A stretch of 64,000 bases of DNA from Dictyostelium discoideum (lineage: Eukaryota), in contig CM000151.3 of the NCBI GenBank assembly GCA_000004695.1, forward strand, positions 2,720,001 to 2,784,000, written 5' to 3'. The notes under the pieces are model-generated. The model made no database searches, had not been told where the DNA came from, and worked only from the letters and a program-made list of their open reading frames with translations. The translations under genes and the position numbers were made by a program. This document shows positions 4,201-52,127 of this stretch, piece by piece (the first letter of the stretch is position 1; every line of letters starts with the position of its first letter).

Positions 4201-4320
4201 AAAAAAACTTTAATACGGACATTCATAAATTAATGCATCTTGATCTATTTTTAATGGATTTTTCATATGAATATCTAAAACATTATAACATGTATTTAAT
4301 TTTTTAAAAAATTTTATTAT
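4201..4320 (-). pseudogene. Isolated fragment of the N-terminal region of an acetyl-CoA synthetase-like ligase
   Basis: About 120 bp nearly identical to 6700..6790 / 3705..3790 (the antisense of ...LNTCYNVLDIHIKNPE...), with no surrounding ORF. Confidence 0.6.
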
Positions 4321-4529
4321 GTATCTTATCTTTATTTAAATTTTGAACCAATAAGATAAAATAAAAAAATAAAGATGAATTACAAATTGGGGTGTATAAG
4401 ATATAATTTAAATATTTTTATTTTATTATTACTAGCTATTTTTATTTTTATTATTATTATTATTATTATTATTTATTATTATTATTATTATTTATTATTA
4501 TTATTATTATTAATTTAATTACCACCAAA

Positions 4530-4885
4530 ATACAGATACTTTCTCTTTCTTGTAAAATTATTAACAATTAATGAGGTTAGTAACATTCCTAAAGAACCCG
4601 ATGCCACAGGTAAGGATATATAATAAAAACCTCTTCAGCATTGTTCAGCACTCATAACACAAATTAAGGCAGTGGCACCACCGGGTGGATGTATTGATTT
4701 TGTGAAATGCATCCCGACAATTGCTAAACTGACCGCTAAAGAGTGCTACTTCAGTTTGAGCATTTGTATAAACCAAATGCACTCTAATGATTGAACCTAT
4801 ATGTCGAAATACTAAATTTCTTGGTTGAGCTAATGGTGATTTGGTGCTCCAAAAATTAATACAGTAGATGCTGCAAATGAACCTA
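4530..4885 (-). pseudogene. Truncated, degenerate duplicate of the C-terminal half of the HPP-family gene at 7455..8390
   Basis: Nucleotide similarity to 7498..7860, with internal deletions and frame disruption. It is flanked by the same ATT-rich repeats and the same upstream block (4320-4420 vs 7250-7350). Confidence 0.6.
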
Positions 4886-4944
4886 TTATTATTATTTTAT
4901 TATTATTATTATTATTTTATTTTTATTATTATTATTATTATTAC

Positions 4945-7011: not shown

Positions 7012-7454
7012 TTTTATAAGGTAATATATGTATTATTAAATAAAATGATATTAAAATAAAACAAATAATAGTTTTATATAAAAAAAGTTTAAAAAAAATA
7101 ATAACTAAATAATAAAATAAAATAAATAATAAAAGTAAAAAAAAAAAAGGTGGAAAACAATTATTAAATCTGGTGTAGATTTATAACCACTATTAACTGC
7201 GATATACAATATTAATTAATTTATTTTTAATTTTTTTTTATTATTATTATCTTTATTTAAATTTTGAACCAATCAGATAAAATAAAAAATAAATTAAAAA
7301 ATAAGGATAATTACAAATTGTGGGGGTGTATAACATATAATTTAAATTTTTTTATTTTATTATTACTAACTATTATTATTATTTATTATTATTATTTATT
7401 ATTATTATTATTTATTATTATTATTATTTATTATTATTATTATTATTAATTTAA

Positions 7455-8390
<936 letters not shown>

Positions 8391-13230: not shown

Positions 13231-13818
13231 ATTCCTCTTATTTTAATTTTAAATAATTTATCCAAACTTCCAAAAAAAATTAAAAAAAAAAAATAAAAAA
13301 GCTTTTCATCCGAATCTTGTTTGCACTAATAATATTACAAAAGGGTTAATGACCAATCTGGTTATTATTTTTATTTTCACTTTTTTTTTTATTATTTTTT
13401 TTTAAAAAGCCATTTTTTTATTTGAAAATAAAAACACCTCAAATTCCGAAAAGACAAAAAACAGGTCATTAAAAAAAAAAAAAAAAAACTGATTTTTTTT
13501 TTTTTTAAAGACGAAAATATATTATGTTGGTAATAGTTATTAAAAAAAAAGTTTCAACATCAAAAAACACCTAAATTTTTATTTTTGGTGCCCAAATAAA
13601 AAATAACTAAAAAAAAAAAAAAAAATTGTTTGAAGTTTATTATTTTATTAATAAATTAAAGAACAATGTTAAAAATATATAAATAATATAATAAATTCAT
13701 TTGTTTTTTTTGTTTTTTTTTCTTTAAACCTTTTATTAAAAAAAAAAAAAAAAAAAAAAAAATGAATTCAAATATATCATCATTTAATTGAATAATACAA
13801 TAATAATAATAAAAAAAA

Positions 13819-16217
13819 ATGAATAGATTAAGTGAACCATTTAATTATGACAAAGACTTCAGCTTTTCAAATAACCAACCAATAGAATTTTGGGATGAAG
13901 TTGCTAAGAATTTCGTTCATTGGTTTGTATTCAGTAACAATTTTATAATTTTTAAAAGTATTTTTAAATAAAATAATTTTTTAACACATACAATTTAAAA
14001 TTTTAAATAATAATAAAAAAAAAGGGATAGAATGTATGATAAAGTTTATAGTGGTGATGAAATTTATCCAGATTGGTTTAAAGGTGGTGAATTAAATACA
14101 TGTTATAACGTTTTAGATATTCATATTAAAAATCCTGCAAAAAGAGATCAAGATGCATTAATTTATGAATGTCCATTTTTAAAGAAAACAATTAAACTAA
14201 CATACTATCAATTATATGAAAAAGTATGTGAATTTTCAAGAGCACTTTTAAATTTAAATGTTTCAAAAAATGATAACGTTATAATTTATATGGCAAATAC
14301 AGTTGAAGCACCAATTGCAATGTTATCATGTGCTCGTATTGGTGCAACTTATTGTACATTATTTGATGGTTATTCAGTTAAAAGTTTAATAGATCGAATT
14401 GAAACAATTACACCAAAATTGATTATCACAACAAATTATGGTATTTCAAATGATGAAATTATTACATTTACACCAAATTTAAAAGAAGCAATTGAACAAT
14501 CAAATTTTAAACCAAATCATATAATTATACATAATAGAGATGATGGTGATTATAATGCAAATTTAACTTTAAAAACAATAATTGAAACAATACCAACGAT
14601 ACCAAATACATTAAGTTGGTATGATGAAATTAAAAAATTCAAAGAAAATAATCAATCACCATTTTATGATTATATACCAGTAGATTCAAGTCATCCATTA
14701 TATATTCTATATACAAGTGGTACAACTGGTAACGCTAAAGCAGTTGTAAGAAGTAATGGTCCACATTTAGTTGGTGTTAAATATACATGTAGATGTATGT
14801 TTTTAAATGATGAAGTTAATAATAATAATACTAATTCAGATTTAATTAAATTCTTTTCACATTCAAGTATTGGTTGGGTAACATTTCATGGTTTTCTATA
14901 TTCATTATTATCAACAGGGAATATTTTTATAATGTTTGAAGGTGGAATTTGTGAATTAAATCAAATCAAGTATCAACTTTGGAAAGTTATTGAAAAACAT
15001 AAGGTAAACAAATTTTTTATTGGTCCTAAATCAATTAGACTTTTAATTAAAGATGACCCAAATGCAGAGTTTATATTATCAAATTATAATTTATCAAGTT
15101 TAAATACAATTTTAGTTGGTGCTGATGTAGTTGAAAAATCAGTTGCAAATTATATTGAAAACAAATTAAAAAAATCTGCTTCAAATATATATGGTCAAAC
15201 TGAAACTGGTAATATATATTTATTTGATTTTAAAAAATCAAACAGATCCAATGTTAGCAGTAATAGTAACAGTAGTGGTAGTGGTAGTGGTAGTGGTAGT
15301 GGTAGTGGTAGTGGTAGTGGTAGTGGTAGTGGTAGTGGTTGTGGTAGTGGTAGTGGTAGTGGTAGTGGTAGTGGTAGTGGTAGTGGTAGTAGTAGTGGTA
15401 GAGGTAATATAATGGTAATTGGTCAGCCAACTCCTTCTTTAAAATCATTCATACTCTCTGAAGAAGAAGAAGAGGAAGTTTGTTATAATAATAGTGATGT
15501 TGGTGGTGGTAATAGTGTTTGTAGTGGTAGTAGTAGTGGTAGTGATAGTGGTACGAGTAGTGGTAAAAAATCATTAAATAAAAATGAAATTGGAGAGTTG
15601 GTATTTAAATTACCTTTACCACCTGGATTTGCATTAACCTTTTATAAAAATAATGAACAATTTAAAAAATTATTCAAAACAAATTTATTGAATATGGAAA
15701 AAGGTTATTATTATTTTTCAGGTGATTTGGCATTTAAAGACCAAGATAATAATTTTACAATCGTTTCAAGATCAGATGATCAAATAAAAATTAAATCAAA
15801 TAAAGTACAATTAAATACAATTGAAATTTCAGTTTTAAAACATCCATTGGTTTTAGAATGTTGTTGTATTGGTATTAAAGATGTAGAATTCTTGACTGTA
15901 CCAATTGGTATTCTAATATTAAATAATCAAAATAATCAAAATAATCAAAATAATCAAAATAATCAAAATAATAATCCAATTGAATTAAAAGAATTAGAAA
16001 AAGAAATAAATATGATAATTTCAAATGATATTGATAATCATCAATATTAAGAAGAATAATAGTTGTTAAGAAAATACCAAAGACAAAAAGTGGAAAAAAT
16101 ACAAGATCAATATTATCAAAATTATTAAATGATATCAATTTTGTTTTGCCAAGTAATATTAATGACTATGAATTATTTTTAGAAATTAAAGAATCTTTTA
16201 TAAATAAAACAGTTTGA
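13819..16217 (+). CDS. Acetyl-CoA synthetase-like ligase paralog D, divergent, with low-complexity insertions and a C-terminal frameshift (possible pseudogene)
   Basis: Exon 1 is 13819..13922 (donor GTTTGT) and exon 2 runs from 14025. The ORF 14032..16050 (672 aa) carries an (SG)n insertion, acidic and N/Q repeats. The frame shifts by -1 near 16030-16047, and the conserved C-terminus (LRRIIVVKKIPKTKSGK...) continues in the other frame to a stop at about 16217. Confidence 0.6.
15268..15403 (+). repeat. (GGTAGT)n hexanucleotide coding repeat encoding (SG)n
   Basis: About 22 tandem GGTAGT units inside the paralog D coding sequence. Confidence 0.9.
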
Positions 16218-16455
16218 ATTTTTGGGTATGTGTTTGTTTTTTTTTTTCAATTAAAATTATTATTAAATTATTATTTCTATTTCTGTATTTTTCAGTGTAT
16301 GTGGGTGTCAGTGGTTATTATTCAGACTTTTTTTATATTTGTTTTGTAAATAGTAATAATAATAATAATTATTGGATCAATTAATGATACTATAAAATTT
16401 ATTAGTTATTTTTAATTTTATTTTATTAATATCACATATCATTTTTTTTATTATT

Positions 16456-16487
<32 letters not shown>

Positions 16488-16551
16488 CTTTCTTCTTCCA
16501 TATTCAATAGTTTTTTTTTTTTTTATTATTATTAATACTTATATTAAAAGA

Positions 16552-18602
16552 ATGTATAGACTAAGCGAACCATTTGATTATTTAAATGATAAAACTTATG
16601 CAAATAATGAGCCAGAAGCTTTTTGGGATGAAGTTGCAAAGAAATTAATTAAATGGTAATTATTTGTTTATTTTTTTTTATATATTAATAATTACTAATT
16701 AAAATAACAATTTTTTTTTTTAAAATAAAATAAAAAAGGGATAAAATGTATGATAAAGTTTATAGTGGTGATGAAATGTATCCAGATTGGTTTAAAGGTG
16801 GTGAATTAAATACATGTTATAATGTTTTAGATAGACAAGTTCAAAATCCATTAAAAAGAGATCAAGATGCTTTAATTTATGAATGTCCATATTTAAAGAA
16901 AACTGTTAAATTAACATATTATCAATTATATGAAAAAGTATGTGAATTTTCAAGAGTACTTTTAAATTTAAATATTTCAAAAAATGATAATGTTTTAATT
17001 TATATGGCAAATACATTGGAGCCTTTAATTGCAATGTTATCATGTGCTCGTATTGGTGCAACTCATTGCACAATATTCGATGGTTATTCGGTTAAAAGTT
17101 TAATAGATAGAATTGAAACAATTACACCAAAATTAATAATTACAACAAACTATGGTATATTAAATGATGAAATCATTACATTTACACCAAATTTAAAAGA
17201 TGCAATTGAACAATCAACTTTTAAACCAAGTAATGTAATTACTTTATTTAGAAATGATATTACAAGCGAATCAGATTTAAAGAAAGTAAAAGATATACCA
17301 ACGATACCAAATACATTAAGTTGGTATGATGAAATTAAAAAATTCAAGGAAAATAATCAATCACCATTTTATGAATATGTTCCAGTAGAATCAAGTCATC
17401 CATTATACATAATATATACAAGTGGTACAACTGGAAATTCTAAAGCAGTTGTAAGAAGTAATGGTTCACATATGGTTTGTTTGAATTACTTTAACCGATA
17501 TATTTCAGAAAATAATCAAAGTACAACATTATTGACAACTTCAAGTGTTGGATGGGTATCATTTCATGGTTTCCTATATGGTATGTTGTCATTTGGATCT
17601 ACATTTGTAATGTATGAAGGTGGTATTATAAAAAATAAACATATTGAAGTTGACCTTTGGAATACCATTGAAAAACATAAAGTAACACATGCATTATCAT
17701 TGGCAAGCGCTATTAGATACCTTATTAAAACTGATCCTGAAGGAACAATCCTTCGTTCAAAGTATGATTTATCAAATTTAAAAGAAATATGGATTGGTGG
17801 TGAACCAATTGAAGAATCAATTTCAGAATACATTGAACAAAAGTTAAAAATAAAATCAACAAGGGGATATGGTCAAACTGAAATTGGTATAACTTATTTA
17901 TATTGTTTTGGTCATATTAATATCCCATACTACGCAACTGGTTTACCATCAATTTTCATTAGACCATCAATATTTTCAGACGATGGTAAAGAATTAGGTG
18001 TTAACGAAATTGGTGAAATCGCATTCAAATTACCAATGCCACCAAGTTTTGCAACTACATTTTATAAAAATGATGAAAAGTTTAAACAATTATTTTCAAA
18101 ATTTCCAGGTTACTACAATCCTGGTGATTTAGGTTTTAAAGATGAAAATGGATTTTATACAATTGTTTCAAGATCAGATGATCAAATTAAAATCAGTGGT
18201 AATAAAGTTCAATTAAATACAATTGAAACATCAATACTAAAACATCCATCAGTTTTAGAATGTTGTTCAATTGGTATTAACGATCCAACTTGTTATAGTG
18301 TACCAATAGCCTTATTAGTTTTAAAACAACAACAACAACAGCAACAAGATCAGTCAACTCGACAAATAGATTTAAATAAATTACACTCTGAAATTAATAA
18401 TATCATTACACAAGATATTGCATCATTAGCAGTCTTAAGAAAAATTGTAATTGTTAATCAATTACCAAAAACAAAAACTGGTAAAATTCCAAGACCAATT
18501 ATATCAAAGTTTTTAAATGATTCAAATTTTCTATTACCCGATAACATCAGTAATGTTGAAATATTTTATGAAATCAAAGAATTATATACGAAAATTAATT
18601 AG
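16552..18602 (+). CDS. Acetyl-CoA synthetase-like acyl-CoA ligase, paralog E (intact; 2 exons)
   Basis: Exon 1 is 16552..16655 (MYRLSEPFDYLNDKTYANNEPEAFWDEVAKKLIKW), the intron is 16656..16738 (GTAATT...AAAAAG), and exon 2 is 16739..18602 (ORF 16746..18602, 618 aa). Confidence 0.85.
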
Positions 18603-18730
18603 TCTTTATAAAAAACAAGTTTTTTTTTTTTAAAACCATTTATTGTTTTTTTTTTTTTATTTGTGTTTAAAATTTTTTTATTTTTTTAATTTTTTTTAAA
18701 ATCTTGTTTTTTTTATTATTAAACAGCTCA

Positions 18731-18772
18731 AAAGTGTTTGTAGTTATTTGTTTTTTTTTTTCAACACCCCAA
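18731..18772 (+). promoter_or_regulatory. Conserved upstream motif AAGTGTTTGTrGTTATTTGTTTTTT...ACACCCCAATT, a candidate promoter element for paralog F
   Basis: A G/C-containing island in otherwise AT-only intergenic DNA. It recurs 110-220 bp upstream of exon 1 of paralogs F (18731-18772), G (21324-21360) and H (23284-23325). Confidence 0.4.
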
Positions 18773-18883
18773 TTTTTTTTTTTTTTTTTTTTTTTTTTTC
18801 AAATCTTGTTTTATTTTATTTATTATTTTTAATTGTTTTTTATTACAATTATATAAATTATTCATTTAATTTTAACCTAAAAT

Positions 18884-20904
18884 ATGTTTAAACTTAGTAA
18901 TCCTTTTAATTATTTAAATGATTTTAATTATGCAAATTCTTATCCTGAGGCTTTTTGGGATGAAGTTGCAAAAAAGAATGTTTTTTGGTAAGATAATCCA
19001 TTTTTCTACAAAAAAAAAAATTAAAAACAAAAACTAATATATTTAAAAGGGATAAAATGTATGATAAAGTTTATAGTGGTGATGAAATGTATCCAGATTG
19101 GTTTAAAGGTGGTGAATTAAATACATGTTATAATGTTTTAGATATTCAAGTTCAAAATCCATTAAAAAGAGATCAAGACGCTTTAATTTATGAATGTCCA
19201 TATTTAAAGAAAACTATAAAATTAACATATTATCAATTATATGAAAAAGTATGTGAATTTTCAAGAGTACTTTTAAATTTAAATATTTCAAAAAATGATA
19301 ATGTTTTAATTTATATGGCAAATACTTTAGAACCATTAATTGCAATGTTATCATGTGCTCGTATTGGTGCAACTCATTGTGTATTATTCGATGGTTATTC
19401 AGTTAAAAGTTTAATAGATAGAATTGAAACAATTACACCAAAATTAATAATTACAACAAACTATGGTATTTTTAATGATGAAATTATTACATTTACACCA
19501 AATTTAAAAGATGCAATTGAATTATCAACTTTTAAACCAAGTAATGTAATTACTTTATTTAGAAATGATATTACAAGCGAATCAGATTTAAAGAAAGTAA
19601 AAGATATACCAACGATACCAAATACATTAAGTTGGTATGATGAAATTAAAAAATTCAAGGAAAATAATCAATCACCATTTTATGAATATGTTCCAGTAGA
19701 ATCAAGTCATCCACTATATATTATTTATTCAAGTGGTACAACTGGTAATGCTAAAGCAGTTGTAAGAAGTAATGGTCCAAATTTAGTTTGTATGAATTAC
19801 TTTGACAGATATATTTCAGAAAAATATGAATGTACAACATTATTGACAACTTCAAGTGTCGGATGGGTATCATTTCATGGTTTCCTATATGGTATGTTGT
19901 CATTTGGATCTACATTTGTAATGTATGAAGGTGGTATTATTAAAAACAAACATATTGAAGTTGACTTTTGGAATACCATTGAAAAACATAAAGCGACACA
20001 TACATTATCATTGGCAAACACTATTAGATACTTTATTAAAACTGATCCTGAAGGAACAATTATACGTTCAAAGTATGATTTATCAAATTTAAAAGAAATA
20101 TGGGTCGGAGGTGAAGTAATTGAAGAATCAATCCCAGAATACATTGAAAAAAAGTTAAAAATAAAACCAACAAGGGGATATGGTCAAACTGAAATTGGTA
20201 TAGCTTATTTATATTGTTTTGATCATATTAATATCCCATACTACGCAACTGGTTTACCATCAATTTTCATTAGACCATCAATATTTTCAGACGATGGTAA
20301 AGAATTAGGTGTTAACGAAATTGGTGAAATCGCATTTAAATTACCAATGCCACCAAGTTTTGCAACTACATTATATAAAAATGATGAAAAGTTTAAACAA
20401 TTATTTTCAAAATTTCCAGGTTACTACAATCCTGGTGATTTAGGTTTTAAAGATGAAAATGGATTCTATACAATTGTTTCAAGATCAGATGATCAAATTA
20501 AAATCAGTGGTAATAAAGTTCAATTAAATACAATTGAAACATCAATACTAAAACATCCATTAGTTTTAGAATGTTGTTCAATTGGTATTAACGATCCAAC
20601 TTGTTATAGTGTACCAATAGCCTTATTGGTTTTAAAACAACTACAACAACAAGATCAATCAATTCAACAAATTGATTTAAATAAATTACAAAATGAAATA
20701 AATTATATAATTAAACAAGATATTGAATCATTAGCGGTCTTAAGAAAAATTGTAATCGTTAATCAATTACCAAAAACAAAAACTGGTAAAATTCCAAGAC
20801 CAATTATATCAAAGTTTTTAAATGACTCGAATTTTCAATTACCTGATAATGTCAATAACGTTGAAATATTTTATGAAATCAAAGAATTATATATGAAAAA
20901 TTAA
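18884..20904 (+). CDS. Acetyl-CoA synthetase-like acyl-CoA ligase, paralog F (intact; 2 exons)
   Basis: Exon 1 is 18884..18987, the intron is 18988..19049 (GTAAGA...AG), and exon 2 is 19050..20904 (615 aa ORF). Confidence 0.85.
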
Positions 20905-21496
20905 TCTTTATAAAAAATTGACAGTTTTTTTTTTAATCATTTATTGTCATTTTTTTTTGTTTTTAAAATTATTTTTAAAAATTCACAAAAAATAATAACA
21001 TTAGCAAATAAAATAATTATTAAAATTTTATTTATATATCATATTTTGTTTTGTCTTTAAATTTAAATATTCATATATTTTAATTTTTTACTCTACAATA
21101 ACCAATGTTTTTAGTCATTTTTTTTTTATAATAATTTTCTATAATTTTTTAAAGATATTTTTCCTTTTTTTATTTAATATTGCAGTATTAGTAATCTAAG
21201 AAAAATATTTGGAAAGAAAAAAATTGAGATCCAAATGTAAAAATTCCTTTTAATCTGTTTTATCATTAAGAAAAGTTTTATATTTTATATAATAAAAATA
21301 TTTCTTAATTACAAAACAAATTAAAAGTGTTTGTGGTAATTTGTTTTTTACACCCCAATTACTTTTTTTTTTGGTTATTTTTATTTTTTTTATTTTATTA
21401 TAATTATAATTTTTAATTTTTTTTTTTAATACAATTATATAAATTATTAATATTTAATTTTAAATTTAATTTTTTTTTTAAATTAATAAAATAAGA

Positions 21497-23040
21497 ATGT
21501 TTAAACTTAGTGATCCTTTTAATAATTTAAATGATTTCAATTATGCAAATTCTTTTCCTGAGGCTTTTTGGGATGAAGTTGCAAAAAAGAATGTTTTTTG
21601 GTAAGATAATACATTTTTTTCTTTATATAAAAAATATAAACAAAAACTAATATTTTTAAAAGGGATAAAATGTATGATAAAGTTTATAGTGGTGATGAAA
21701 TGTATCCAGATTGGTTTAAAGGGTGAATTAAATACATGTTATAATTTATATGAAACAAGTCTAAAAATAAAGATAAACAAGTTCAAAATCCATTAAAAAG
21801 AGATCAAGATGCATTAATTTATGAATGTCCATATTTAAAGAAAACTGTAAAATTAACATATCATCAATTATATGAAAAAGTATGTGAATTTTCAAGAGTA
21901 CTTTTAAATTTAAATATTTCAAAAAATGATAATGTTTTAATATATATGGCAAATACGGTTGAAGCACCAATTGCAATTTTATCATGTACTCATAATGGTG
22001 CAACTCATTGTGTATTATTCGATGGTTATTCAGTTAAAAGTTTAATAGATAGAATTGAAACAATTACACCAAAATTAATAATTACAACAAACTATGGTAT
22101 TTTTAATGATGGAATCATTAATTTCATCACAAATTTAAAAGAATCTATTGAATTATCAACTTTTAAACCAAGTAATGTAATTACTTTATTTAGAAATGAT
22201 ATTACAAGCGAATCAGATTTAAAGAAAGTAAAAGATATACCAACGATACCAAATACATTAAGTTGGTATGATGAAAATAAAAAACTTAAAGAAAATAATC
22301 AATCACCATTTTATGAATATGTACCAGTAGAATCAAGTCATCCACTATATATTATTTATTCAAGTGGTACAACTGGTAATGCTAAAGCAGTTGTAAGAAG
22401 TAATGGTCCAAATTTAGTTTGTATGAATTACTTTAACAGATATATTTCAGAAAAATATGAAAATATAAAATTATTTACATTTTCAAATGTCGGATGGATA
22501 TCATTTCATGGTTCCCTATAAGGCTTGTTGTCATCTGGATCTACATTTATAATGTATGAAGGTGGTATTATAAAAAACAAATATATTGAAGTTGACTTTT
22601 GGAATACCATTGAAAAACATAAAGTGACACATGCATTGTCATTGGCAAGCACTATTAGATACTTTATTAAAACTGATCCTGAAGGAACAATTATACGTTC
22701 AAAGTATGGTTTATCAAATTTAAAAGAATTTATGGTTGGAGGTGAAGTAATTGAAGAATCAATCCCAGAATACATTGAAAAAAAGTTTTAAAGCAAAAAC
22801 AAGATCAATCAACTCAATTGATTTAAATAAATTACAATCTGAAATTAATAATATCATTACACAAGATATTGAATCGTTAGCAGTCTTGAGAAAAATTGTA
22901 GTTGTTAATCAATTACCAAAAACCAAAGCTGGTAAAACTCCAAGACCAAAGTTTTTAATGATTCAAATTTTCAATTTCCAGATAATATCATTGACATTGA
23001 AATATTTTATGAAATTAAAGAATTATATATGAAAAGTTAA
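21497..23040 (+). pseudogene. Acetyl-CoA synthetase-like ligase paralog G, heavily disrupted
   Basis: Exon 1 is 21497..21600 and is intact. Exon 2 has a frameshift at about 21720 (KG*), an in-frame stop at about 22519 and an internal deletion of ~160 codons near 22790. Only fragmentary ORFs remain (21946..22521, 22525..22791, 22751..23032). Confidence 0.8.
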
Positions 23041-23083
23041 AAATAACTATTTTTAATCATTTATTACTCATTTTTTATTTATT

Positions 23084-23123
<40 letters not shown>

Positions 23124-23504
23124 AAATTTTGAATCGAATTAATTTACAAAATATATGTTAAATGATATAAAATAGATTCAAATATTGTGAATAAAATTGG
23201 AAAATTTTAAAATGATTATAATAATTGGTCAATTAATGAAAATTGTATTTAATAAAAAACTGTTAAATAATAAAACAGTTTAAAGAAGTGTTTGTGGTTA
23301 TTTTTTGTTTTTTAACACCCCCATTTATTTTTATTTATTTTTTATCTTTTATTTTTTAAAATATATATCATTATTTAAATCTTTTATTTTTTATATATAA
23401 TTAAATTTTTTAATTTTAATTTATATTATATTTAATTTTAAAATTAATTTTTAAAATTTTTTTTTTTTTTTTTTTATAATTTATTTAATTAATTAAAAAT
23501 TAAT

Positions 23505-25522
23505 ATGTATAAGCTTAGTGATCCTTTTAATTATGTAAATGACAGTAATTATGCAAATTCTTATCCTGAGGATTTTTGGGATGAAGTGGCAAAAAAGCAT
23601 GTTTTTTGGTAAATATATCTTTTTTTTTTTTCTTTATAAAAAAAGAGATTTTAATATTAAAACAAAAACTAATATTTTTAAAATAAAGGGATAAAATGTA
23701 TGATAAAGTTTATAGTGGTGATGAAATTTATCCAGATTGGTTTAAAGGTGGTGAATTAAATACATGTTATAATTTATTAGACATTCATACAAAAAATCCT
23801 ACTAAAAGAGATCAAGATGCAATAATTTATGAATGTCCATTTTTAAAGAAAACTGAGAAATTAACATATTATCAATTATATGAAAAAGTATGTGAATTTT
23901 CAAGAGTACTTTTAAATTTAAATGTTTCAAAAAATGATGTTGTTTTAATTTATATGTCAAATACATTAGAACCATTAATTGCAATGTTATCATGTGCTCG
24001 TATTGGCGCAACTCATTGTACAATAATCGATGGTTATTCAGTTAAAAGTTTAATAGATAGAATCGAAACAATTACACCAGAATTAATAATTACAACAAAC
24101 TATGGTATATCAAATGATGAAATCATTACATTTACACCAAATTTAAAAGAAGCAATTGAATTATCAACTTTTAAACCAAGTAATGTAATAACTTTATTTA
24201 GAAATGAAGTTTTGGATGAAACAAATTTAAAAAAAGTAAATGATATACCAACGATACCAAATACATTAAGTTGGTATGATGAAATTAAAAAACTTAAAGA
24301 AAATAATCAATCACCATTTTATGAATATGTACCAGTAGAATCAAGTCATTCATTATATATACTATATACAAGTGGTACAACTGGTAATGCTAAAGCTGTT
24401 GTTAGAAGTAATGGTCCACATTTGGTTAGTATTAGATATTATAGATTCCGTAAAGAATCAGATATACCTCAAATTGTATTTTCATATTCAAATATTGGGT
24501 GGGTATCATTTCACGGTTTCTTTTATGGTTTACTATCTGTAGGGAATACATTTGTAATGTATGAAGGTGGTATTATAAATAACAAACATATTGAAGATGA
24601 TTTATGGAAAACAATTGTAAAACATAAAGTAACACATACATTTCCATCCCCATCTGTATTTAGATACCTTATTAAAACTGATCCTGAAGGAAAAATCATC
24701 AGTTCAAAGTATGATTTATCAAATTTAGAAGAAATATGGTGTGGTAGTGAAGTAATTGAAGAATCAATTCCAGAATACATTGAACAAAAGTTAAAAATAA
24801 AATGTTTAAGAGTATTTGGTCAAAGTGAAATTGGCATAACTTCATTTATTAGTGTTCATGCTTTAAATATGCCTTATAAAGCCACTGGCATACCATCAAT
24901 TTTCATAAAACCATCAATACTTTCAGAAGAAGGTAAAGTTTTGAATTCAAATGAAATTGGTTTTGTTGCAATTAAACTACCAATGCCACCAGGTTTTGCA
25001 ACTACATATTATAAAAATGATGAAAAGTTTAAACAATTATTTTCTAAATTCCCAGGTTATTATAATACCGGTGATTTAGGTTATAAAGATCAAAGAGGAT
25101 TTTATACAATTGTTTCGAGATCAGATGATCAAATTAAAATCGGTTATAAAAAAGTTCAATTAAATACAATTGAAACGTCAATTTTAAAACACCCATCAGT
25201 TTTAGAATGTTGTTCGATTGGTATTTATGATCCAGTTATTCGTAGTGTACCAATTGGTGTATTAGTATTAAAAGAAAATCAATCAATTGATTTAATTAAA
25301 TTACAAAATGAAATTAATAATATCATTACACAAGATATTGAATCATGTGCAGTCTTAAGAAAAATTTTAATTGTTAACCAATTACCAAAAACAAAAGTTG
25401 GTAAAATTCCAAGACTAATTTTGTCAAATTTATTAAATGATTCAAATTATCAACTACCCCATAATGTCAGTGACACTGAAATATTTTATGAAATCAAAGA
25501 ATTATATATGAAAAATTTATAG
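23505..25522 (+). CDS. Acetyl-CoA synthetase-like acyl-CoA ligase, paralog H (intact; 2 exons)
   Basis: Exon 1 is 23505..23608, the intron is 23609..23688 (GTAAAT...AAAG), and exon 2 is 23689..25522 (608 aa ORF). Confidence 0.85.
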
Positions 25523-26224
25523 TTAGTAAACTTAATTTAAAAATTTGTTTTTATTTTTTGAAAAAAAAATAATAAAAAAAAAAAAATTTGAATTATTTAT
25601 TTTTTAAATTTAATAAATAAAAAAATAAAAAAATTTAATTATATTTTTTTTTTTTTTATTGGTTTGATAAAAAATAGTGTTTTACCTTTTGATTACATTA
25701 GAAGTTTTGTTTTAAAAAAAAGGTTAAAAATTCAAAAAAAATAATAAGGACGGATATAAATTATTGTTTATTTCCTTTAATGCATAAACTGTGATTAATC
25801 AATATTAAATAAAAAAAATAATAATAATATAAATATTGTTTGTAATGATTAAAATTTTTTTTTTTTTTAATAAGTTTCAAATGTTGAAAAATCTTTAAAA
25901 AAAAAATTAATTTTAATCGTAACAAGCACTTTAAAAAAATATTTACTTATTATTAGCATTTTTAACAAACAACATAAAAATAAAAATTTTAATTAAAATA
26001 AATTAAATTAAATTAAAAAACACACTGGGGTGTGTAGAATTTCTAAAATATTTTAGTGGAAATAATTTAATTTATTTTAATTAAAATTTTTTATTTTTAA
26101 TTATATAAAAATATTATCTAACAAACAATAAGAATTTTTTTTTTTTTTTTTTTTTTTCATTAGAGTTTGTGCACTATTATATTTAATTTTTCATTTTCAT
26201 TTTATTAAATAATTAATAACAAAT

Positions 26225-28240
26225 ATGTATAAACTTAGTGATCCTTTTGATTATTTAAATGATAATAGTTATTCAAAGTCTAATCCAGAAGCTTTTTGGG
26301 ATGAGGTTGCTAAAAAGAATGTTTTTTGGTAAATATATATCTTTTTTTTTCTTTGTTAAAAAAGAGATATTAAAATTAAAACAAAAACTAAGATTTTTAA
26401 AAATAAAAGGGATAAAATGTATGATAAAGTTTATAGTGGCGATGAAATATATCCAGATTGGTTTAAAGGTGGTGAATTAAATACATGTTATAATTTATTA
26501 GATATTCATATTAAAAATCCTGCTAAAAGAGATCAAGATGCATTAATTTATGAATGTCCATTTTTAAAGAAAACAATTAAATTAACATATTATCAATTAT
26601 ATGAAAAAGTATGTGAATTTTCAAGAGTACTTTTAAATTTAAATGTTTCAAAAAATGATAATGTTTTAATATTTATGGCAAATACATTAGAACCATTGAT
26701 TGCAATGTTATCATGTGCTCGTATTGGTGCAACTCAATGTACATTATTCGATGGTTCTTCGGTTAAAAGTTTAATAGATAGAATCGAAACAATTACACCA
26801 AAATTAATAATTACAACAAATTATGGTATTTTAAATGACGAAATCATTACATTTACACCAAATTTAAAAGAAGCAATTGAATTATCAACTTTTAAACCAA
26901 GTAATGTAATAACTTTATTTAGAAATGAAGTTTTGGATGAAACAAAATTAAAAAAAGTTCAAACTATTCCAACTATTCCAAATACATTAAGTTGGTATGA
27001 TGAAATTAAAAAATTAAAAGAAAATAATCAATCACCATTTTATGAATATGTACCAGTAGAATCAAGTCATCCATTATATATACTTTATACAAGTGGCACA
27101 ACTGGTAATACCAAAGCTGTTGTAAGAAGTAATGGTCCGCATATGGTTGGTATTAAATACTATACATTCCGTAAAGAATCAGATATACCTCAAATTGTAT
27201 TTTCACATACAAATATTGGGTGGGTATCATTTCATGGTTTCTTTTATGGTTTATTATCTGGAGGAAACACCTTGGTAATGTATGAAGGTGGTATTATAAA
27301 AAACAAACATATGGAAGATGATTTATGGATAGCTATTGTAAAACATAAAGTAACACATACGTTTCCATCCCCATCTGTATTTAGATACCTTATTAAAACT
27401 GATCCTGAAGGAACAATTGTACGTTCTAAGTATGATTTATCAAATTTAAAAGAAATATGGTGTGGTGGTGAAGTAATTGAAGAATCAATTCCAGAATATA
27501 TTGAACAAAAGTTAAAAATAAAATGTTTAAGAGTATTTGGTCAAAGTGAAATTGGCGTAACTTCATTTATTAGTGTCCATGCTTTAAATATTCCTTATAG
27601 AGCCACTGGCGTACCATCAATTTATATTAGACCATCAATACTTTCAGAAGAAGGTGAAGTTTTGAATTCAAATGAAATTGGTTTAGTTGCATTTAAACTA
27701 CCAATGCCTCCCAGTTTTACAATTACATTTTATAAAAATGATGAAAAGTTTAAACAACTATTTACAAGATTTCCAGGTTACTACGATTCAGGTGATTTAG
27801 GTTATAAAGATCAAAGAGGATTTTATACAATTGTTTCAAGATCAGATGATCAAATTAAGATAGGTTTTAATAAAATTCAATTAAATACAATTGACACATC
27901 AATTTTAAAACATCCATCAGTTTTAGAATGTTGTTCTATTGGTATTTTAAGTCCAGATTGCCATACTGCACCGATTGGTATATTGGTATTAAAAGAAAAT
28001 CCATCAATTGATTTAAATAAATTACAAAATGAAATTAATAATATCATCACGCAAGATATTGAATCACTGGCAGTCTTAAAAAAAATAATAGTTATTAACC
28101 AATTACCAAAAACAAAAGTTGGTAAAATTCCAAGACAAATTTTATCAAATTTATTAAATGATCCAAACTATCAATTACCAGACGATGTCAATGACTCTGA
28201 ACTATTTTATAAAATCAAAGAGTTATATATGAAAAATTAA
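26225..28240 (+). CDS. Acetyl-CoA synthetase-like acyl-CoA ligase, paralog I (intact; 2 exons)
   Basis: Exon 1 is 26225..26328, the intron is 26329..26409, and exon 2 is 26410..28240 (607 aa ORF). It is about 98% identical to paralog J. Confidence 0.85.
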
Positions 28241-28577
28241 TTTTAGCAAAGTTTTTGTAAATTGTTTTTGTTCTAAAAAAAAAAAAAAAAAAAAAGAGTA
28301 ATAATAATTAAAAAAGAAAATAATTTGGATTATTTTTTTTTAATTTAATAAAAGTAGGAGATATAAAAAATAAATAAAAAATATAAAAAAAAAATAAAAA
28401 AATTTAAACTTTTAAATAATATGTTTGAAATTATTTGATTTTTTTTTTTTTTTGACTAAAAATAGTGTTTTACTATGGGACAAAAAGAGTTTTTTTAATC
28501 CACCTCCATCCTTATTGTTTTGTTTAAAGGGGTTTTCTCCCGTTGTAATTTAATTAATTTTAAATTAAATTTAATTT

Positions 28578-28578
28578 T

Positions 28579-28633
<55 letters not shown>
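28578..28633. repeat. Poly(A) tract of about 56 nt; its duplicate is at 33317..33372
   Basis: Uninterrupted A run inside the duplicated 3' flank of paralogs I and J. Confidence 0.95.
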
Positions 28634-28637
<4 letters not shown>

Positions 28638-28800
28638 TATTTAATTTTACAAAAAGTTTCATTATAATATTTAAAAACCAAAATATAAAAAAAATGTCAC
28701 ACAAATTCCCCACTTAAAATATTATTATAATTTCAAAAATATTTAATTAAAAAAGAAATATATAATAAATAAGAATAAAATAAAAATAATATAATTTGGT

Positions 28801-29130
28801 AGTTAAAATGGATTCTAACTTTATCGGTTGAGTTGAAAGAAGTCGCACAAATTTTGTAACTTAAAAAAGAACTAAGGTTTCTATTTCAACCTCTGTTTTT
28901 AATTTTTTCCAAAATATTAAAACCGCAATAAGGCTACGACATCAATAAAATTGAAATATTTGCTTATTGTGAATTCTCACACGGTATATTGTGTAACACA
29001 CACCACCCAGGTTTAACTTCATGAACGCACCGTCAATAGGAATTCACTACAGCAGCGTAGTCAAATTAAATAATAAAATTCACTACGCTACTGTAGTGAA
29101 ATTTTATGGAAAATTCCCTCCAACAATAAT
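28801..29130 (+). mobile_element. Short (~330 bp) copy of an unassigned repetitive element
   Basis: 28801..28990 matches 33535..33725 and the reverse complement of 62150..62330. It is followed by a hairpin-forming segment (aattcactacagcagcgtagtc ... cactacgctactgtagtgaaatt) and then by a repeat of flank 28310-28500 at 29150-29350. Confidence 0.5.
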
Positions 29131-29786
29131 AATTAAAAAAGAAAATAATTTGGATTATTTTTTTTTTAATTTAATAAAAGTAGGAGATATAAAAAATATA
29201 TAAAAAATATAAAAAAAAAATAAAAAAATTTAAACTTTTAAATAATATGTTTGAAATTATTTGATTTTTTTTTTTTTGATTTTTTTTTTTTAATTATTTT
29301 TTTTTTTTGACTAAAAATAGTGTTTTACTATGGGACGAAAAGAGTTTTTTTAATCCACCTCCTTCCTTATTATTTTACATATATCCAAATTATTAATTAA
29401 TTATCCATATTTTTTGGATTCTATCCTTTTTTTATTTTTTATCACCACTAAAGAGATATTCCTTAAAAAAAAAAAAAAATAGAGAAAATAAGGAAAAATA
29501 GATAAATTTTTTTAAATTTTTTTTTCTTAAAAAACTGCAAATAAAAATAAAAACTAGACTGTTTGGTTATTAAAATGAATATTTATTTATATTTTTAAGA
29601 TTTTTTTTTATTTTTTTTTTTTCAAAAGATATGAAAAAATTTTGATCAGTAAAAAAAAATTTAACAATTTAATTTTAAAAAAATAATTATAAAATCCCAA
29701 TCTAAGCAATGAGAAAGATATAAAATAATTTGTTTTGTTTTTAATTCAAACAATGAGAAAGATATAAAATGATTCTATTTATATTT

Positions 29787-29824
<38 letters not shown>

Positions 29825-30962
29825 CTTTGGACTCCATTTTATCTAGGCATTTAATTAGACAAAACTTAAATAAAGATAATTACAAAAAATATATGAATGA
29901 AAATTTTTAAAACCCTATAGATATTGGGCAGATATGATAATTTCAAACCTTTTTTTAATTTAAAAAAAAAAAAAAAAAAATATCTTGCACGGGAAAAAAA
30001 AACCTAGTAAAATGTTAAATTATTTAAAAAAAAATAAAAATTCTTATATTTTAATATTTTTTATTTAAATATTTATTGTACACCCATTATTTTTTATCAT
30101 TTTATTATAGTTTTTAATAATCTACAATATATTAAACTATAGTTTAATGTTTTAAAAAATGAGAAATTTCAATAGTATTATTTCCTATTAATTGTTGTAT
30201 ATTATTAAATTATAGTTTTATGTTTTAAAAAATGAGAAATTACAATAGTAAAATTTCTCACAATATGGTAAATCAATAAATTTTTTATAATTTAATGACA
30301 AATTAATATTCAATTCTAATTAAATAATATAAGATTTTTTCAATTTTTAATTTATTAAAATATATTTTTTTTATGGCCAGATTCTTTTTAATTATTTTAT
30401 GATAATTTAATAATAAAGTGTGATTAATTATTAATTAGAAATTGATATTAGTTTATTAAAAATTTTATTATATAAAAATATTATCTAACAAACAATAAGA
30501 ATTTTTTTTTTTTTCATTAGAATTTTTGCACTTTCCCAAAAAATTCTCCATATTATTTTATTTATTTATATTTTTTATTGCGACATTAATTTCTTATTTT
30601 TTTTTATTATGAATTATGGTATATGTAAAAAAAAGTAGTAGGAATAAATTTGGAGATTTTAAATAAACCTTTTTCATGTATCTTTTAAATAATCTTAATT
30701 GAAATTATTAGTGGACATATTTTTTTTATTTAATTTTATTCATTTCATAATTCTAGTTTACTCACTTTTTGTAATTTAGGATATTCATAATATGAATAAT
30801 TTTTAATGACGGGTGCAATAAAATTTATTTTTATGTATAAATTTTTTTTTTCCATGATTTAGTATTATTAATTTTTTTTTTCTTTTTTTTTTTTAATATT
30901 TCATTTGTATTTTATTATATTTAATTTTTCATTTTCATTTTATTAAATAATTAAAAACAAAT

Positions 30963-32978
30963 ATGTATAAACTTAGTGATCCTTTTGATTATTTAAATGA
31001 TAACAGTTATTCAAATTCTAATCCAGAAGCTTTTTGGGATGAGGTTGCTAAAAAGAATGTTTTTTGGTAAATATATATCTTTTTTTTTCTTTGTTAAAAA
31101 AGAGATATTAAAATTAAAACAAAAACTAAGATTTTTAAAAATAAAAGGGAAAAAATGTATGATAAAGTTTATAGTGGCGATGAAATATATCCAGATTGGT
31201 TTAAAGGTGGTGAATTAAATACATGTTATAATTTATTAGACATTCATATTAAAAATCCTGCTAAAAGAGATCAAGATGCATTAATTTATGAATGTCCATA
31301 TTTAAAGAAAACAATTAAATTAACCTATTATCAATTATATGAAAAAGTATGTAAATTTTCAAGAGTTCTTTTAAACTTAAATGTTTCAAAAAATGATAAT
31401 GTTTTAATATTTATGGCAAATACATTAGAACCATTAATTGCAATGTTATCATGTGCTCGTATTGGTGCAACTCAATGTACATTATTCGATGGTTATTCGG
31501 TTAAAAGTTTAATAGATAGAATCGAAACAATTACACCAAAATTAATAATTACAACAAATTATGGTATTTTTAATGACGAAATCATTACATTTACACCAAA
31601 TTTAAAAGAAGCAATTGAATTATCAACTTTTAAACCAAGTAATGTAATTACTCTATTTAGAAATGAAGTTTTGGATGAAACAAAATTAAAAAAAGTTCAA
31701 AATATTCCAACTATTCCAAATACATTAAGTTGGTATGATGAAATTAAAAAATTAAAAGAAAATAATCAATCACCATTTTATGAATATGTACCAGTAGAAT
31801 CAAGTCATCCATTATATATACTTTATACAAGTGGCACAACTGGTAATACCAAAGCTGTTGTAAGAAGTAATGGTCCGCATATGGTTGGTATTAAATACTA
31901 TACATTCCGTAAAGAATCAGATATACCTCAAATTGTATTTTCAAATGCAAATATTGGGTGGGTATCATTTCATGGTTTCTTTTATGGTTTATTATCTGGA
32001 GGAAACACCTTGGTAATGTATGAAGGTGGTATTATAAAAAACGAACATATAGAAGATGATTTATGGATAGCTATTGTAAAACATAAAGTAACACATACAT
32101 TTCCATCCCCATCTGTATTTAGATACCTTATTAAAACTGATCCTGAAGGAACAATTGTACGTTCTAAGTATGATTTATCAAATTTAAAAGAAATATGGTG
32201 TGGCGGTGAAGTAATTGAAGAATCAATTCCAGAATACATTGAACAAAAGTTAAAAATAAAATGTTTAAGAGTATACGGTCAAAGTGAAATTGGCGTAACT
32301 TCATTTATTAGTGTCCATGCTTTAAATATTCCTTATAGAGCCACTGGCGTACCATCAATTTATATTAGACCATCAATACTTTCAGAAGAAGGTGAAGTTT
32401 TGAATTCAAATGAAATTGGTTTAGTTGCATTTAAACTACCAATGCCACCCAGTTTTGCAATTACATTTTATAAAAATGATGAAAAGTTTAAACAACTATT
32501 TACAAGGTTTCCAGGTTACTATGATTCAGGTGATTTAGGTTATATAGATCAAAGAGGATTTTATACAATTGTTTCAAGATCAGATGATCAAATTAAGATA
32601 AGTTGTAATAAAATTCAATTAAATACAATTGACACATCAATTTTAAAACATCCATCAGTTTTAGAATGTTGTTCTATTGGTATTTTAAGTCCAGATTGTC
32701 GTACTGCACCGATTGGTATATTGGTATTAAAAGAAAATCCATCAATTGATTTAAATAAATTACAAAATGAAATTAATAATATCATCACGCAAGATATTGA
32801 ATCACTGGCAGTCTTAAAAAAAATAATAGTTATTAACCAATTACCAAAAACAAAAGTTGGTAAAATTCCAAGACAAATTTTATCAAATTTATTAAATGAT
32901 CCAAACTATCAATTACCAGACGATGTCAATGACTCTGAACTATTTTATAAAATCAAAGAGTTATATATGAAAAATTAA
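30963..32978 (+). CDS. Acetyl-CoA synthetase-like acyl-CoA ligase, paralog J (intact; 2 exons)
   Basis: Exon 1 is 30963..31066, the intron is 31067..31147, and exon 2 is 31148..32978 (607 aa ORF). Confidence 0.85.
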
Positions 32979-50871: not shown

Positions 50872-50908
<37 letters not shown>

Positions 50909-50911
<3 letters not shown>

Positions 50912-52066: not shown

Positions 52067-52127
52067 AAAAAAAACAACAATTTAATTTTTAATTTTTTTT
52101 TAATTTTTTATTTTTTAATTTTTATTA

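What the first reader, a model, noticed from the sequence alone, without database searches (positions are those of the whole stretch)
18731..23325. Conserved upstream element shared by paralogs F, G and H
AAAAGTGTTTGTrGTTATTTGTTTTTT(n)ACACCCCAATT occurs at 18731-18772, 21324-21360 and 23284-23325, always 110-220 bp upstream of exon 1. It is conserved even for the dead copy G. A weaker version (gtgtatgtgggtgtcagtggttatt, 16294-16330) precedes E. Copies I and J carry a different G-rich box (acacactggggtgtgtag, 26029). This suggests subfamily-specific promoter elements that were duplicated along with the genes.
Basis: seen in the sequence. Interest (0 to 1): 0.5.

Follow-up and report, generated by a model that had tools for sequence, protein, structure and literature searches.

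The report
Conserved C-rich promoter box, Dictyostelium genes
Three neighbouring copies of a Dictyostelium acyl-CoA-synthetase-like gene share a short upstream DNA block, and the only part under selection is the C-rich box ACACCCC, which looks like an ordinary binding site of the known G-box type for a developmental transcription factor.

Summary
GTGTTTGT-N-ACACCCC occurs exactly three times in the window, 110-220 bp upstream of the start codons of copies F, G and H; none is expected by chance.

The window is D. discoideum AX4 chromosome 2. It holds a tandem array of acetyl-CoA-synthetase-like genes; F is DDB_G0273227.

The block was inherited through the duplications. The paralogs are young, with 79-93% identity at 4-fold sites, so sharing alone does not show function.

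- **Constrained part:** only ACACCCC(A/C)ATTT beats background. Its C columns are invariant in 15 of 15 cases, against 22% of other G/C columns in the same spacers.
- **Unconstrained part:** the GT-rich half is no better conserved than its surroundings.
- **Wider occurrence:** the box is also upstream of B and C, recurs in related species, and is lost in 2 of 3 dead copies.

Its reverse complement, GGGGTGT, fits the published GBF response element. So do the "different" boxes of E and I, which makes them one class rather than subfamily-specific elements. J lacks I's box.

E, F and H are induced at 8-16 h of development. The most likely reading is a G-box/CAE-type promoter element. That makes it a new member of a known kind, of modest interest. 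Binding and function are untested.

The parts
18730..18774 (+). F block: AAAAGTGTTTGTAGTTATTTG-T(n)-CAACACCCCAATT, ending 110 bp before the ATG of F (DDB_G0273227)
   Evidence: F identified by exact protein match
18764..18770 (+). F C-box ACACCCC. Its reverse complement GGGGTGT fits KGKGKGK. This is the constrained core.
21323..21360 (+). G block (G is a pseudogene); C-box at 21350-21356
23283..23326 (+). H block (DDB_G0273305); C-box ACACCCCC at 23315-23323, giving two overlapping heptamers
18720..18734 (+). 5' sub-motif (T)AAACAG(C/T)T(C/T)AAA(A)G of F. The G version is at 21313-21327 and the H version at 23272-23285. It resembles the last codons plus stop of gene D.
   Evidence: resemblance to the D tail not significant
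16206..16237 (+). E's counterpart of the 5' part: AAAACAGTTTGA (last codons and stop of D), then GTGTTTGT. The T-run and CAA follow just downstream of this stretch. No ACACCCC.
16295..16314 (+). E G-box GTGTATGTGGGTGTCAGTGG, with two overlapping perfect heptamers in the G-rich orientation
26020..26037 (+). I box ACACACTGGGGTGTGTAG, with perfect heptamers GGGGTGT and GGTGTGT. Unique in the window.
4389..4395 (-). C-box upstream of B: ATACACCCCAATTTGTAATT, 371 bp before the ATG at 4024 and about 126 bp after the degenerate HPP-like copy upstream
7319..7329 (-). C-box upstream of C: ATACACCCCCACAATTTGTAATT, 318 bp before the ATG at 7011 and about 126 bp after the stop of the HPP-family gene
30756..30778 (+). 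J: decayed box GTTTACTCACTTTTTGTAATTTA. Strain ACTFIW has ACCCAC here. It is not a heptamer match.
13524..13586 (+). D: weak look-alike ATGTTGGTAATAGTTATT...AAAAACACCTAAATTTTTATTTTT, 235-295 bp before the ATG
   Evidence: resemblance judged by eye only
18848..18862 (+). TATA-like ATTATATAAATTATT shared by the F-type and G-type promoters (G: 21434-21448)

Best explanation
The shared block is a piece of promoter-side spacer inherited through the tandem duplications of the gene array. Its functional core is the sense-strand C-rich box ACACCCC(A/C)ATTT, 104-220 bp upstream of the ATG.

Proposed mechanism, which is inferred and not shown: after aggregation, cAMP signalling activates GBF. GBF binds the C-box, possibly together with the upstream GT-rich stretch as a weak second half-site, and switches on the downstream gene at the mound stage.

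The boxes of E (TGTGGGTGT) and I (GGGGTGTGT) are variants of the same class, not different elements.

Shown: presence, inheritance, selective conservation of the C-box, the fit to the published consensus, and developmental induction of the genes. Inferred: that a protein binds, that it is GBF, and that the box drives the induction.
For: **Not chance.** There are 3 matches against 0 expected. All six ACACCCC in the window lie upstream of family members, against 1.2 expected.

**Selective conservation.**
- Within orthologous promoter groups of intact genes from four genomes, the C columns of the box are invariant 15/15. Other G/C columns in the same spacers are invariant 30/135 (p=2e-9).
- With the well-aligned F and H groups only, the figures are 10/10 against 16/40 (p=5e-4).
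- The only GC-containing 8-mers shared by the F, G and H spacers are the two halves of the block, apart from CCATTTAT (F-H) and TGGTTATTT (G-H).

**Other species keep the two-box layout**.
- D. citrinum: GGGGTGT...AACACCAATTT.
- D. dimigraforme: ...GCACCCCTTTT.
- D. firmibasis: AACAGTTTTAAG...GTGTGGGT...ACAACCCC, at -210 to -150. Here the upstream neighbour is not a paralog, so the block travels with the downstream gene.

**Enrichment.** CACCCC is 23 times denser in the 400 bp upstream of family ATGs (1.22 per kb) than elsewhere in 263 kb (0.052 per kb), and 16 of 18 are on the gene's strand.

**Loss in dead copies.** The box is lost in 2 of 3 pseudogene copies and kept in 10 of 10 intact F/G/H-type genes (Fisher p=0.038).

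**Fit to GBF.**
[quoted passage not shown] So do the E and I boxes.
- 24 of 37 family promoters hold such a heptamer, against 28 of 221 AT-rich control windows.

**Expression** (PMC4403905, Additional file 7).
- F is up at 8 and 11 h; H at 11, 12 and 14 h; E at 14 and 16 h; C at 18 and 20 h.
- I is up in suspension at 10-12 h, after 300 uM cAMP from 6 h.
- J, which has no box, is in no differential-expression list and not in the expressed-gene list.
- GBF is described as required for induction of many genes in the mound (PMC2257962).
Against: - No binding or reporter data exist for these genes. No paper in the library names them.
- A single heptamer is a low-specificity match: 51 occur in the window against 30 expected, and 13% of control windows hold one.
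- The GT-rich half does not fit the heptamer perfectly and shows no excess conservation. The paired sites described for other GBF targets are therefore not clearly present in D. discoideum F, G and H.
- The conserved flank (A/C)ATTT goes beyond the GBF consensus and could point to another factor.
- The paralogs are young, with 4-fold identity 0.79-0.93. 59% of 4-fold columns are invariant across nine genes, so seven invariant columns have p of about 0.02 if G/C sites mutated no faster than A/T sites.
- The copies and strains are not independent, and adjacent sites are not independent, so the p-values overstate the evidence.
- The transcription start site is unknown.
- Induction times differ among the copies (8 to 20 h).
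- The dead copy G keeps a perfect box.
Confidence: 0.45

Rival explanations
1. It is a functional promoter element of the downstream gene, but bound by a factor other than GBF. This would be an unidentified C-box-binding protein that recognises the longer core ACACCCC(A/C)ATTT.
For: - The conserved core is longer than the GBF heptamer and includes the (A/C)ATTT flank in F, G, H, B and C.
- There is only one perfect heptamer per promoter in F and G.
- The GT half is unconstrained.
- Induction times are staggered from 8 to 20 h rather than uniform.
Against: - No other Dictyostelium factor with this specificity turned up in the literature searches. One of them returned nothing useful.
- The E and I boxes, and the D. 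citrinum and D. firmibasis versions, share only the GBF-type heptamer, not the ATTT flank.
Confidence: 0.2
2. It is a neutral leftover of recent tandem duplication. The block is shared only because the copies are young. It stands out because complex, GC-containing sequence resists the slippage and indels that scramble the surrounding AT-rich simple sequence.
For: - 4-fold-site identity is 0.84 for F-H, 0.79 for F-C and 0.93 for E-F, against 0.46 by chance.
- 59% of 4-fold columns are invariant across nine genes.
- The GT half is conserved no better than background.
- Pseudogene G keeps the block intact.
- The J lineage has let its box decay.
Against: - C-box columns are invariant 15/15, against 22-40% for other G/C columns in the same spacers.
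- The spacers are only 9-16% G+C, and G/C are the majority base in none of the 118 four-fold columns. From this I infer an AT-biased mutation pressure under which a neutral CCCC run should decay.
- The layout is retained in three further species, at corrected 4-fold distances of 0.33-0.46.
- The box is lost in 2 of 3 pseudogenes and in none of 10 intact genes.
- E and F have nearly identical second exons but different promoters. Coding divergence therefore understates promoter age.
Confidence: 0.2
3. The block belongs to the upstream gene. It would be a relic of, or a signal at, a gene's 3' end: the stop-codon region, 3'UTR, or a termination or polyadenylation signal.
For: - AAAACAGTTTAA in the F/G/H blocks matches AAAACAGTTTGA, the last codons and stop of gene D. 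There it is followed by GTGTTTGT, a T-run and CAA, as in the block.
- The B and C boxes lie 86-144 bp after the stop of an HPP-family gene in every strain.
- In D. citrinum the C-type box is 60 bp from the upstream gene but 1.1 kb from the family ATG.
Against: - Alignment of the D tail to the F, G and H spacers is no better than shuffles; 13-97 of 200 shuffles score as well.
- In E's spacer, the one place where the block really follows D's stop codon, the selectively conserved ACACCCC is missing.
- In D. firmibasis the block lies about 580 bp from a non-paralog upstream gene and 150-210 bp from the family ATG.
- The distance to the ATG is 104-220 bp, against 161-478 bp to the upstream stop.
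Confidence: 0.1
4. It is a promoter (DUSE) or gene of a small non-coding RNA, or a structured RNA or DNA hairpin formed by the inverted GTGT...ACAC halves.
For: - DUSE elements of Dictyostelium ncRNA genes contain CCC, and a TGTG box accompanies some of them (PMC7919456).
- The two halves are in inverted orientation.
Against: - The DUSE consensus [AT]CCCA[AT]AA (PMC3188802) does not occur in any block and is not enriched in the window.
- The order of the boxes is the reverse of DUSE followed by a TGTG box.
- There is no Rfam match at E<=1 in 16000-31000 and no tRNA gene.
- Folding energies are no better than shuffles, with z-scores of -0.24, -1.49 and +0.12 and no common structure.
Confidence: 0.02

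Closest known systems
GBF-binding G-boxes / CA-rich elements (CAEs) of Dictyostelium post-aggregative and cell-type-specific genes, as described for cprB, cotC and the sigN family
   Same: - A short G/T-rich (or, on the other strand, C/A-rich) box in an otherwise AT-rich promoter.
- It fits (T/G)G(T/G)G(T/G)G(T/G).
- It occurs in either orientation, a few hundred bp upstream of the ATG.
- It is shared by the promoters of a duplicated gene family, exactly as reported for the sigN group 2 promoters (PMC2257962).
- The genes are induced after aggregation.
   Different: - F and G have one perfect heptamer plus an imperfect GT-rich partner 20-27 bp away, not clear pairs of sites.
- The conserved core extends into an (A/C)ATTT flank that is not part of the consensus.
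- No binding or gbfA-dependence data exist.
- Induction times range from 8 to 20 h among the copies.
DUSE, the Dictyostelium upstream sequence element of ncRNA genes
   Same: A short CCC-containing box in AT-rich DNA, sometimes accompanied by a TGTG box (PMC7919456).
   Different: - The consensus [AT]CCCA[AT]AA is not matched.
- The box order is reversed.
- No ncRNA lies downstream.
- The element lies upstream of protein-coding genes.
Phylogenetic footprints in promoters of tandemly duplicated gene families in general
   Same: Islands of retained sequence (C-box, TATA-like box, leader) lie within spacers otherwise scrambled by indels. The elements are copied along with the genes.
   Different: Nothing distinctive. 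This is the generic category the finding falls into.

Membership tests
GBF-type G-box / CAE | [quoted passage not shown] | tested here: met
   The reverse complement of ACACCCC is GGGGTGT. Perfect matches lie at 18764-18770, 21350-21356 and 23315-23323, and in the B, C, E and I boxes. The consensus is quoted from PMC2257962.
GBF-type G-box / CAE | Two closely spaced sites or half-sites (pairs of sites in sigN promoters per PMC2257962; the half-site requirement is recalled from memory of Schnitzler et al. 1994 and was not read here) | tested here: inconclusive
   - The GT half GTGTTTGTGGT lies 20-27 bp upstream but fits no perfect heptamer and shows no excess conservation.
- H, C, E and I have two overlapping heptamers.
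- In D. citrinum and D. firmibasis the 5' box is the perfect one.
GBF-type G-box / CAE | Bound by GBF protein in vitro or in vivo | not testable with these tools
   This needs a gel-shift assay or ChIP. No such data were found for these genes.
GBF-type G-box / CAE | Target gene induced after aggregation, cAMP-inducible, and dependent on gbfA | tested here: inconclusive
   - The timing fits. F is up at 8 and 11 h, H at 11-14 h and E at 14-16 h on filters. I is up at 10-12 h in suspension after 300 uM cAMP (PMC4403905 supplement).
- gbfA dependence is not known.
- Six further list entries for F, three for E and two for H were not resolved to a column.
GBF-type G-box / CAE | Location in the 5' flank of the regulated gene | tested here: met
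   The box lies 104-220 bp upstream of the ATG in all F/G/H-type copies, on the gene's strand. The transcription start site is unknown.
DUSE (ncRNA promoter element) | Motif [AT]CCCA[AT]AA about 60 nt upstream of an ncRNA gene | tested here: not met
   No match lies within any block, and there is no Rfam family hit in 16000-31000 at E<=1.
Selectively constrained cis-element (generic) | Conserved more than neighbouring comparable sites, and across species | tested here: met
   - C-box: 15/15 against 30/135 G/C columns, or 10/10 against 16/40. Recognisable in D. citrinum, D. dimigraforme and D. firmibasis.
- Not met for the GT-rich half: 9/38.

The most novel reading that the evidence does not exclude
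The block could be a two-box module in which the strong site moves between positions during evolution. The perfect GBF-type heptamer sits in the 3' box in D. discoideum but in the 5' box in D. citrinum and D. firmibasis.

Its 5' end (AAAACAGTTTAA) could be a fossil of the stop-codon region of the neighbouring paralog that was carried into the promoter by the duplication.

Differences in box layout among the copies (F, H, E, C, I, J) would then set their staggered induction times: 8 h, 11-12 h, 14-16 h, 18-20 h, cAMP-dependent only, and silent.
Probability: 0.12. Interest if true: 0.4.

Novelty: new member of a known kind. Interest (0 to 1): 0.22.

Why it matters
The finding gives a concrete, testable cis-element for an uncharacterised and fast-evolving family of acetyl-CoA-synthetase-like genes in a model organism.

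- The family is a natural series of paralog promoters: a perfect box, a variant box, a decayed box, and dead genes. Their expression differs accordingly, which suits the study of how regulation diverges after tandem duplication.
- The case is also a caution. In young tandem arrays, shared upstream sequence is expected by descent, and only part of the shared block, here 7-12 bp of about 45, shows evidence of selection.

It does not change what is known about Dictyostelium transcription.

Tried and rejected
- **DUSE or ncRNA promoter:** rejected. The consensus is not matched and there is no Rfam hit.
- **Hairpin or structured RNA from the inverted halves:** rejected. Folding is no better than shuffles and there is no common structure.
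- **tRNA or tRNA-associated element:** none found.
- **Bacterial promoter/terminator scan:** irrelevant for a eukaryote, as expected.
- **Relic of gene D's 3' end:** suggestive by eye, but local alignments are not better than dinucleotide shuffles. Kept only as a side note.
- **Whole 40-bp motif as the functional unit:** rejected. The GT half is at background conservation.
- **"I and J share a box":** rejected.
- **Literature:**
  - No paper names any of the 11 gene identifiers searched, which cover seven of the family's genes including the AX4 duplicate copies.
  - The sequence-word search returned only noise.
  - Powell-Coffman et al. 1994 (PMC359110) is not held.
  - The supplements of PMC4506546, PMC2864575 and PMC8327917 gave nothing.
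- **More distant chromosome-1 paralogs:** DDB_G0267544 and DDB_G0268272 could not be fetched, so that extension of the test failed.
- **Genome-wide motif enrichment:** could not be run. No Dictyostelium genome is searchable by pattern with these tools.
Full report
**What the window is**

The sequence is about 21% G+C. It carries a tandem array of two-exon genes with ACAS_N, AMP-binding and AMP-binding_C domains, so they are acetyl-CoA-synthetase-like.

- tblastn with copy F finds eleven copies or fragments.
  - On the minus strand: A (ATG about 1057), B (4024) and C (7011), plus a small fragment at 4213-4302.
  - On the plus strand: D (13819), E (16552), F (18884), G (21497), H (23505), I (26225) and J (30963).
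- F is identical to DDB_G0273227/DDB_G0273695 of D. discoideum AX4. E is DDB_G0273225, H is DDB_G0273305, I is DDB_G0273229 and J is DDB_G0273365. The window is therefore AX4 chromosome 2, inside its known duplicated segment.
- G is a pseudogene with frameshifts and an internal deletion. B has a frameshift near residue 423.

Yes.

- The full blocks are 18730-18774, 21323-21360 and 23283-23326. They end 110, 137 and 179 bp before the ATGs.
- The E box (16295-16314) and the I box (26020-26037) are present.

Three corrections are needed.

1. J does not have I's box, even with three mismatches allowed. The homologous place is degenerate.
2. E's positional counterpart of the block's 5' part is at 16206-16237: AAAACAGTTTGA, GTGTTTGT, a T-run and CAA, but no ACACCCC. 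The G-rich E box lies about 60 bp further on.
3. ACACCCC is also upstream of B (4389-4395) and C (7323-7329), on those genes' strand, as ATACACCCCAATTTGTAATT and ATACACCCCCACAATTTGTAATT. All six ACACCCC in 64 kb lie upstream of family members, against 1.2 expected.

**Chance is excluded, but common descent is the real null**

The paralogs are young or homogenised.

- Identity at 4-fold degenerate sites is 0.84 for F-H, 0.79 for F-C and F-I, and 0.93 for E-F. Chance identity is 0.46.
- Across nine F/H-type genes from four genomes, 59% of 4-fold columns are invariant. Seven invariant columns would therefore have p of about 0.02, even if G/C sites mutated no faster than A/T sites.

Sharing among F, G and H is therefore weak evidence of function on its own. 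I looked for relative conservation instead.

**Relative conservation**

I fetched the orthologous arrays from three other D. discoideum strains, two "cf. discoideum" strains, D. citrinum, D. dimigraforme, D. firmibasis and D. purpureum.

- The F/G/H-type promoters of the D. discoideum complex all carry the block. The consensus is AAAACAGTTTAAA(A)AG(AA)GTGT(TTGT)GGTAAT-T-rich-(C)AACACCCC(A/C)ATTT, with the C-box 104-220 bp before the ATG.
- Between the F, G and H spacers of the window, the only shared GC-containing 8-mers are the two halves of the block, apart from CCATTTAT (F-H) and TGGTTATTT (G-H).
- Within orthologous groups of intact genes, the C columns of the box are invariant in 15 of 15 cases. 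Other G/C columns in the same spacers are invariant in 30 of 135 (Fisher p=2e-9).
- Restricting to the well-aligned F and H groups gives 10/10 against 16/40 (p=5e-4).
- The 45 bp upstream of the C-box, which include GTGTTTGT, score 9/38. That is the background level.

The constrained unit is therefore the C-box, not the 40-bp motif. These p-values overstate the case, because neighbouring sites and related copies are not independent and the alignment of AT-rich flanks is imperfect.

**Further support**

- **Pseudogenes.** Two of the three dead F/G-type copies have lost the box. One lost it by deletion (L002, ATG 14805). The other, the ortholog of G in strain ACTFIY, reads ACATACC. All ten intact genes keep the box (p=0.038). 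AX4's own G still has it.
- **More distant species** keep the layout, with the stronger site in a different place (corrected 4-fold distances 0.33-0.46).
  - D. citrinum has AAAAGTGTTAGGGGTGTAGTGTTG-T7-AACACCAATTT.
  - D. dimigraforme has AACTGTTTAAAATGTTG-T-run-AGCACCCCTTTT.
  - D. firmibasis has AACAGTTTTAAG...GTGTGGGT...ACAACCCC at -210 to -150.
- **Association with the downstream gene.** In D. firmibasis the upstream neighbour is an unrelated 226-residue gene about 580 bp away, so the block goes with the downstream gene.
- **D. purpureum.** The single homolog has ACACCCACCCCCACA about 420 bp upstream.
- **Enrichment.** Over 263 kb of Dictyostelium sequence in hand, CACCCC is 23 times denser in the 400 bp upstream of family ATGs than elsewhere, and 16 of 18 are on the gene's strand.

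**What the box resembles**

[quoted passage not shown] That consensus is quoted by Vicente et al. for the sigN family, where conserved pairs of such sites in the promoters of duplicated genes were read as GBF sites (PMC2257962).
- The E box (TGTGGGT, TGGGTGT) and the I box (GGGGTGT, GGTGTGT) fit as well.
- Such heptamers occur in 24 of 37 family promoters, against 28 of 221 AT-rich control windows.
- The match has low specificity: 51 heptamers occur in the window against 30 expected.
- GTGTTTGTGGT is not a perfect heptamer.
- The conserved (A/C)ATTT flank lies outside the consensus. A different factor is therefore a serious rival.

**Expression**

No paper names these genes. The supplement of Rosengarten et al. 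2015 (PMC4403905) lists them. I assigned columns from the tab positions and confirmed them where leading tabs are shown.

| Copy | Lists in which it is up-regulated |
|---|---|
| F | filters, 8 h and 11 h |
| H | filters, 11 h, 12 h ("rapid") and 14 h |
| E | filters, 14 h and 16 h |
| C | filters, 18 h and 20 h |
| I | suspension, 10 h and 12 h |
| J | none |

- In the suspension experiment, 300 uM cAMP was given from 6 h.
- E, F and H, but not C, I or J, pass the expression threshold in both regimes.
- J, the copy without a box, appears in no differential-expression list.
- GBF is described as required for induction of many genes in the mound, so the timing is compatible.
- The copies are staggered rather than tightly co-regulated.
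- Several further list entries for F, E and H were not resolved to a column.

**Rivals**

- **A factor other than GBF:** about 0.2.
- **Neutral relic of duplication:** about 0.2. The arguments are set out above.
- **A 3'-end element or fossil of the upstream gene:** about 0.1.
  - For: AAAACAGTTTAA resembles D's last codons and stop. The B and C boxes always lie 86-144 bp after an HPP-family gene. In D. citrinum that box is 60 bp from the upstream gene but 1.1 kb from the family ATG.
  - Against: the D-tail alignment is no better than shuffles, and the F/G/H-type box tracks the downstream ATG.
- **DUSE, ncRNA or hairpin:** rejected.

**Verdict**

The finding is real. It is a duplicated promoter block whose selected core is a C-rich box of the G-box/CAE type, most likely conferring post-aggregative induction. 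It is a new member of a known kind, of modest interest. The mechanism is inferred, not shown.

Noticed in passing
window 16552-18603 (E) vs 18884-20904 (F): E and F have nearly identical second exons (92% amino-acid identity, 0.93 at 4-fold sites). Their first exons are only 69% identical and their promoters differ. This suggests gene conversion or recombination confined to exon 2.
   Followed up: partly
all intact paralogs in the window (C, E, F, H, I): Amino-acid identity (0.70-0.78) is lower than identity at 4-fold synonymous sites (0.75-0.84) for most pairs. The proteins are therefore evolving unusually fast relative to silent sites, through relaxed constraint or positive selection.
   Followed up: no
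window 4213-4302 (-) and 4520-4900 (-): The spacer upstream of B holds a 90-bp fragment of a family paralog (83% identity to F residues 57-86) and a degenerate copy of the HPP-family membrane-protein gene that is intact at 7455-8390. The B/C duplication unit therefore included the HPP gene plus the synthetase-like gene.
   Followed up: partly
window 28300-28521 and 29126-29376: A direct duplication of about 200-250 bp, 826 bp apart (a 44-nt stretch is 100% identical), brackets a long A-run and a G+C-richer segment (about 28800-29110) in the 2.7-kb I-J spacer. It looks like an insertion or rearrangement. No tRNA gene or Rfam match lies there.
   Followed up: partly
window 30530-30900: J has about 390 bp between the shared 'cattaga(g/a)tttgtgcac' and the shared leader that I lacks. 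The J-type genes of strains ACTFIR and ACTFIW contain part of the same segment, so it is probably a deletion in I rather than an insertion in J.
   Followed up: partly
introns of C, F, H and I (e.g. window 19025-19049): The 3' part of the single intron, AAAACAAAAACTAAT, is conserved among F, H and I. C has the variant GACAAAAAACTAATAATTT. The 5' part is scrambled by indels. The conserved part is probably the branch-point region.
   Followed up: no
window 18604-18660, 20905-20960, 23041-23080: The first 50-60 bp after the stop codons of E, F and G share a block (...TTTTTAATCATTTATTG/AC...). It is a second conserved island in the spacers, possibly the 3'-end processing region.
   Followed up: no
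window 1655-1700 (-), upstream of A: A C-rich stretch, ACCCATTGTGGTTTTTACCCCCTCCCCCATGTGTTTTT, lies about 600-640 bp upstream of A's ATG. It is not a GBF-heptamer match, and its relation to the family box is unknown.
   Followed up: no
window 60695-60709 and 50123-52326: A (TG)n run lies at 60695-60709, and five GBF-type heptamers cluster around the ORF at 50909-52066. They are unrelated to the family.
   Followed up: no
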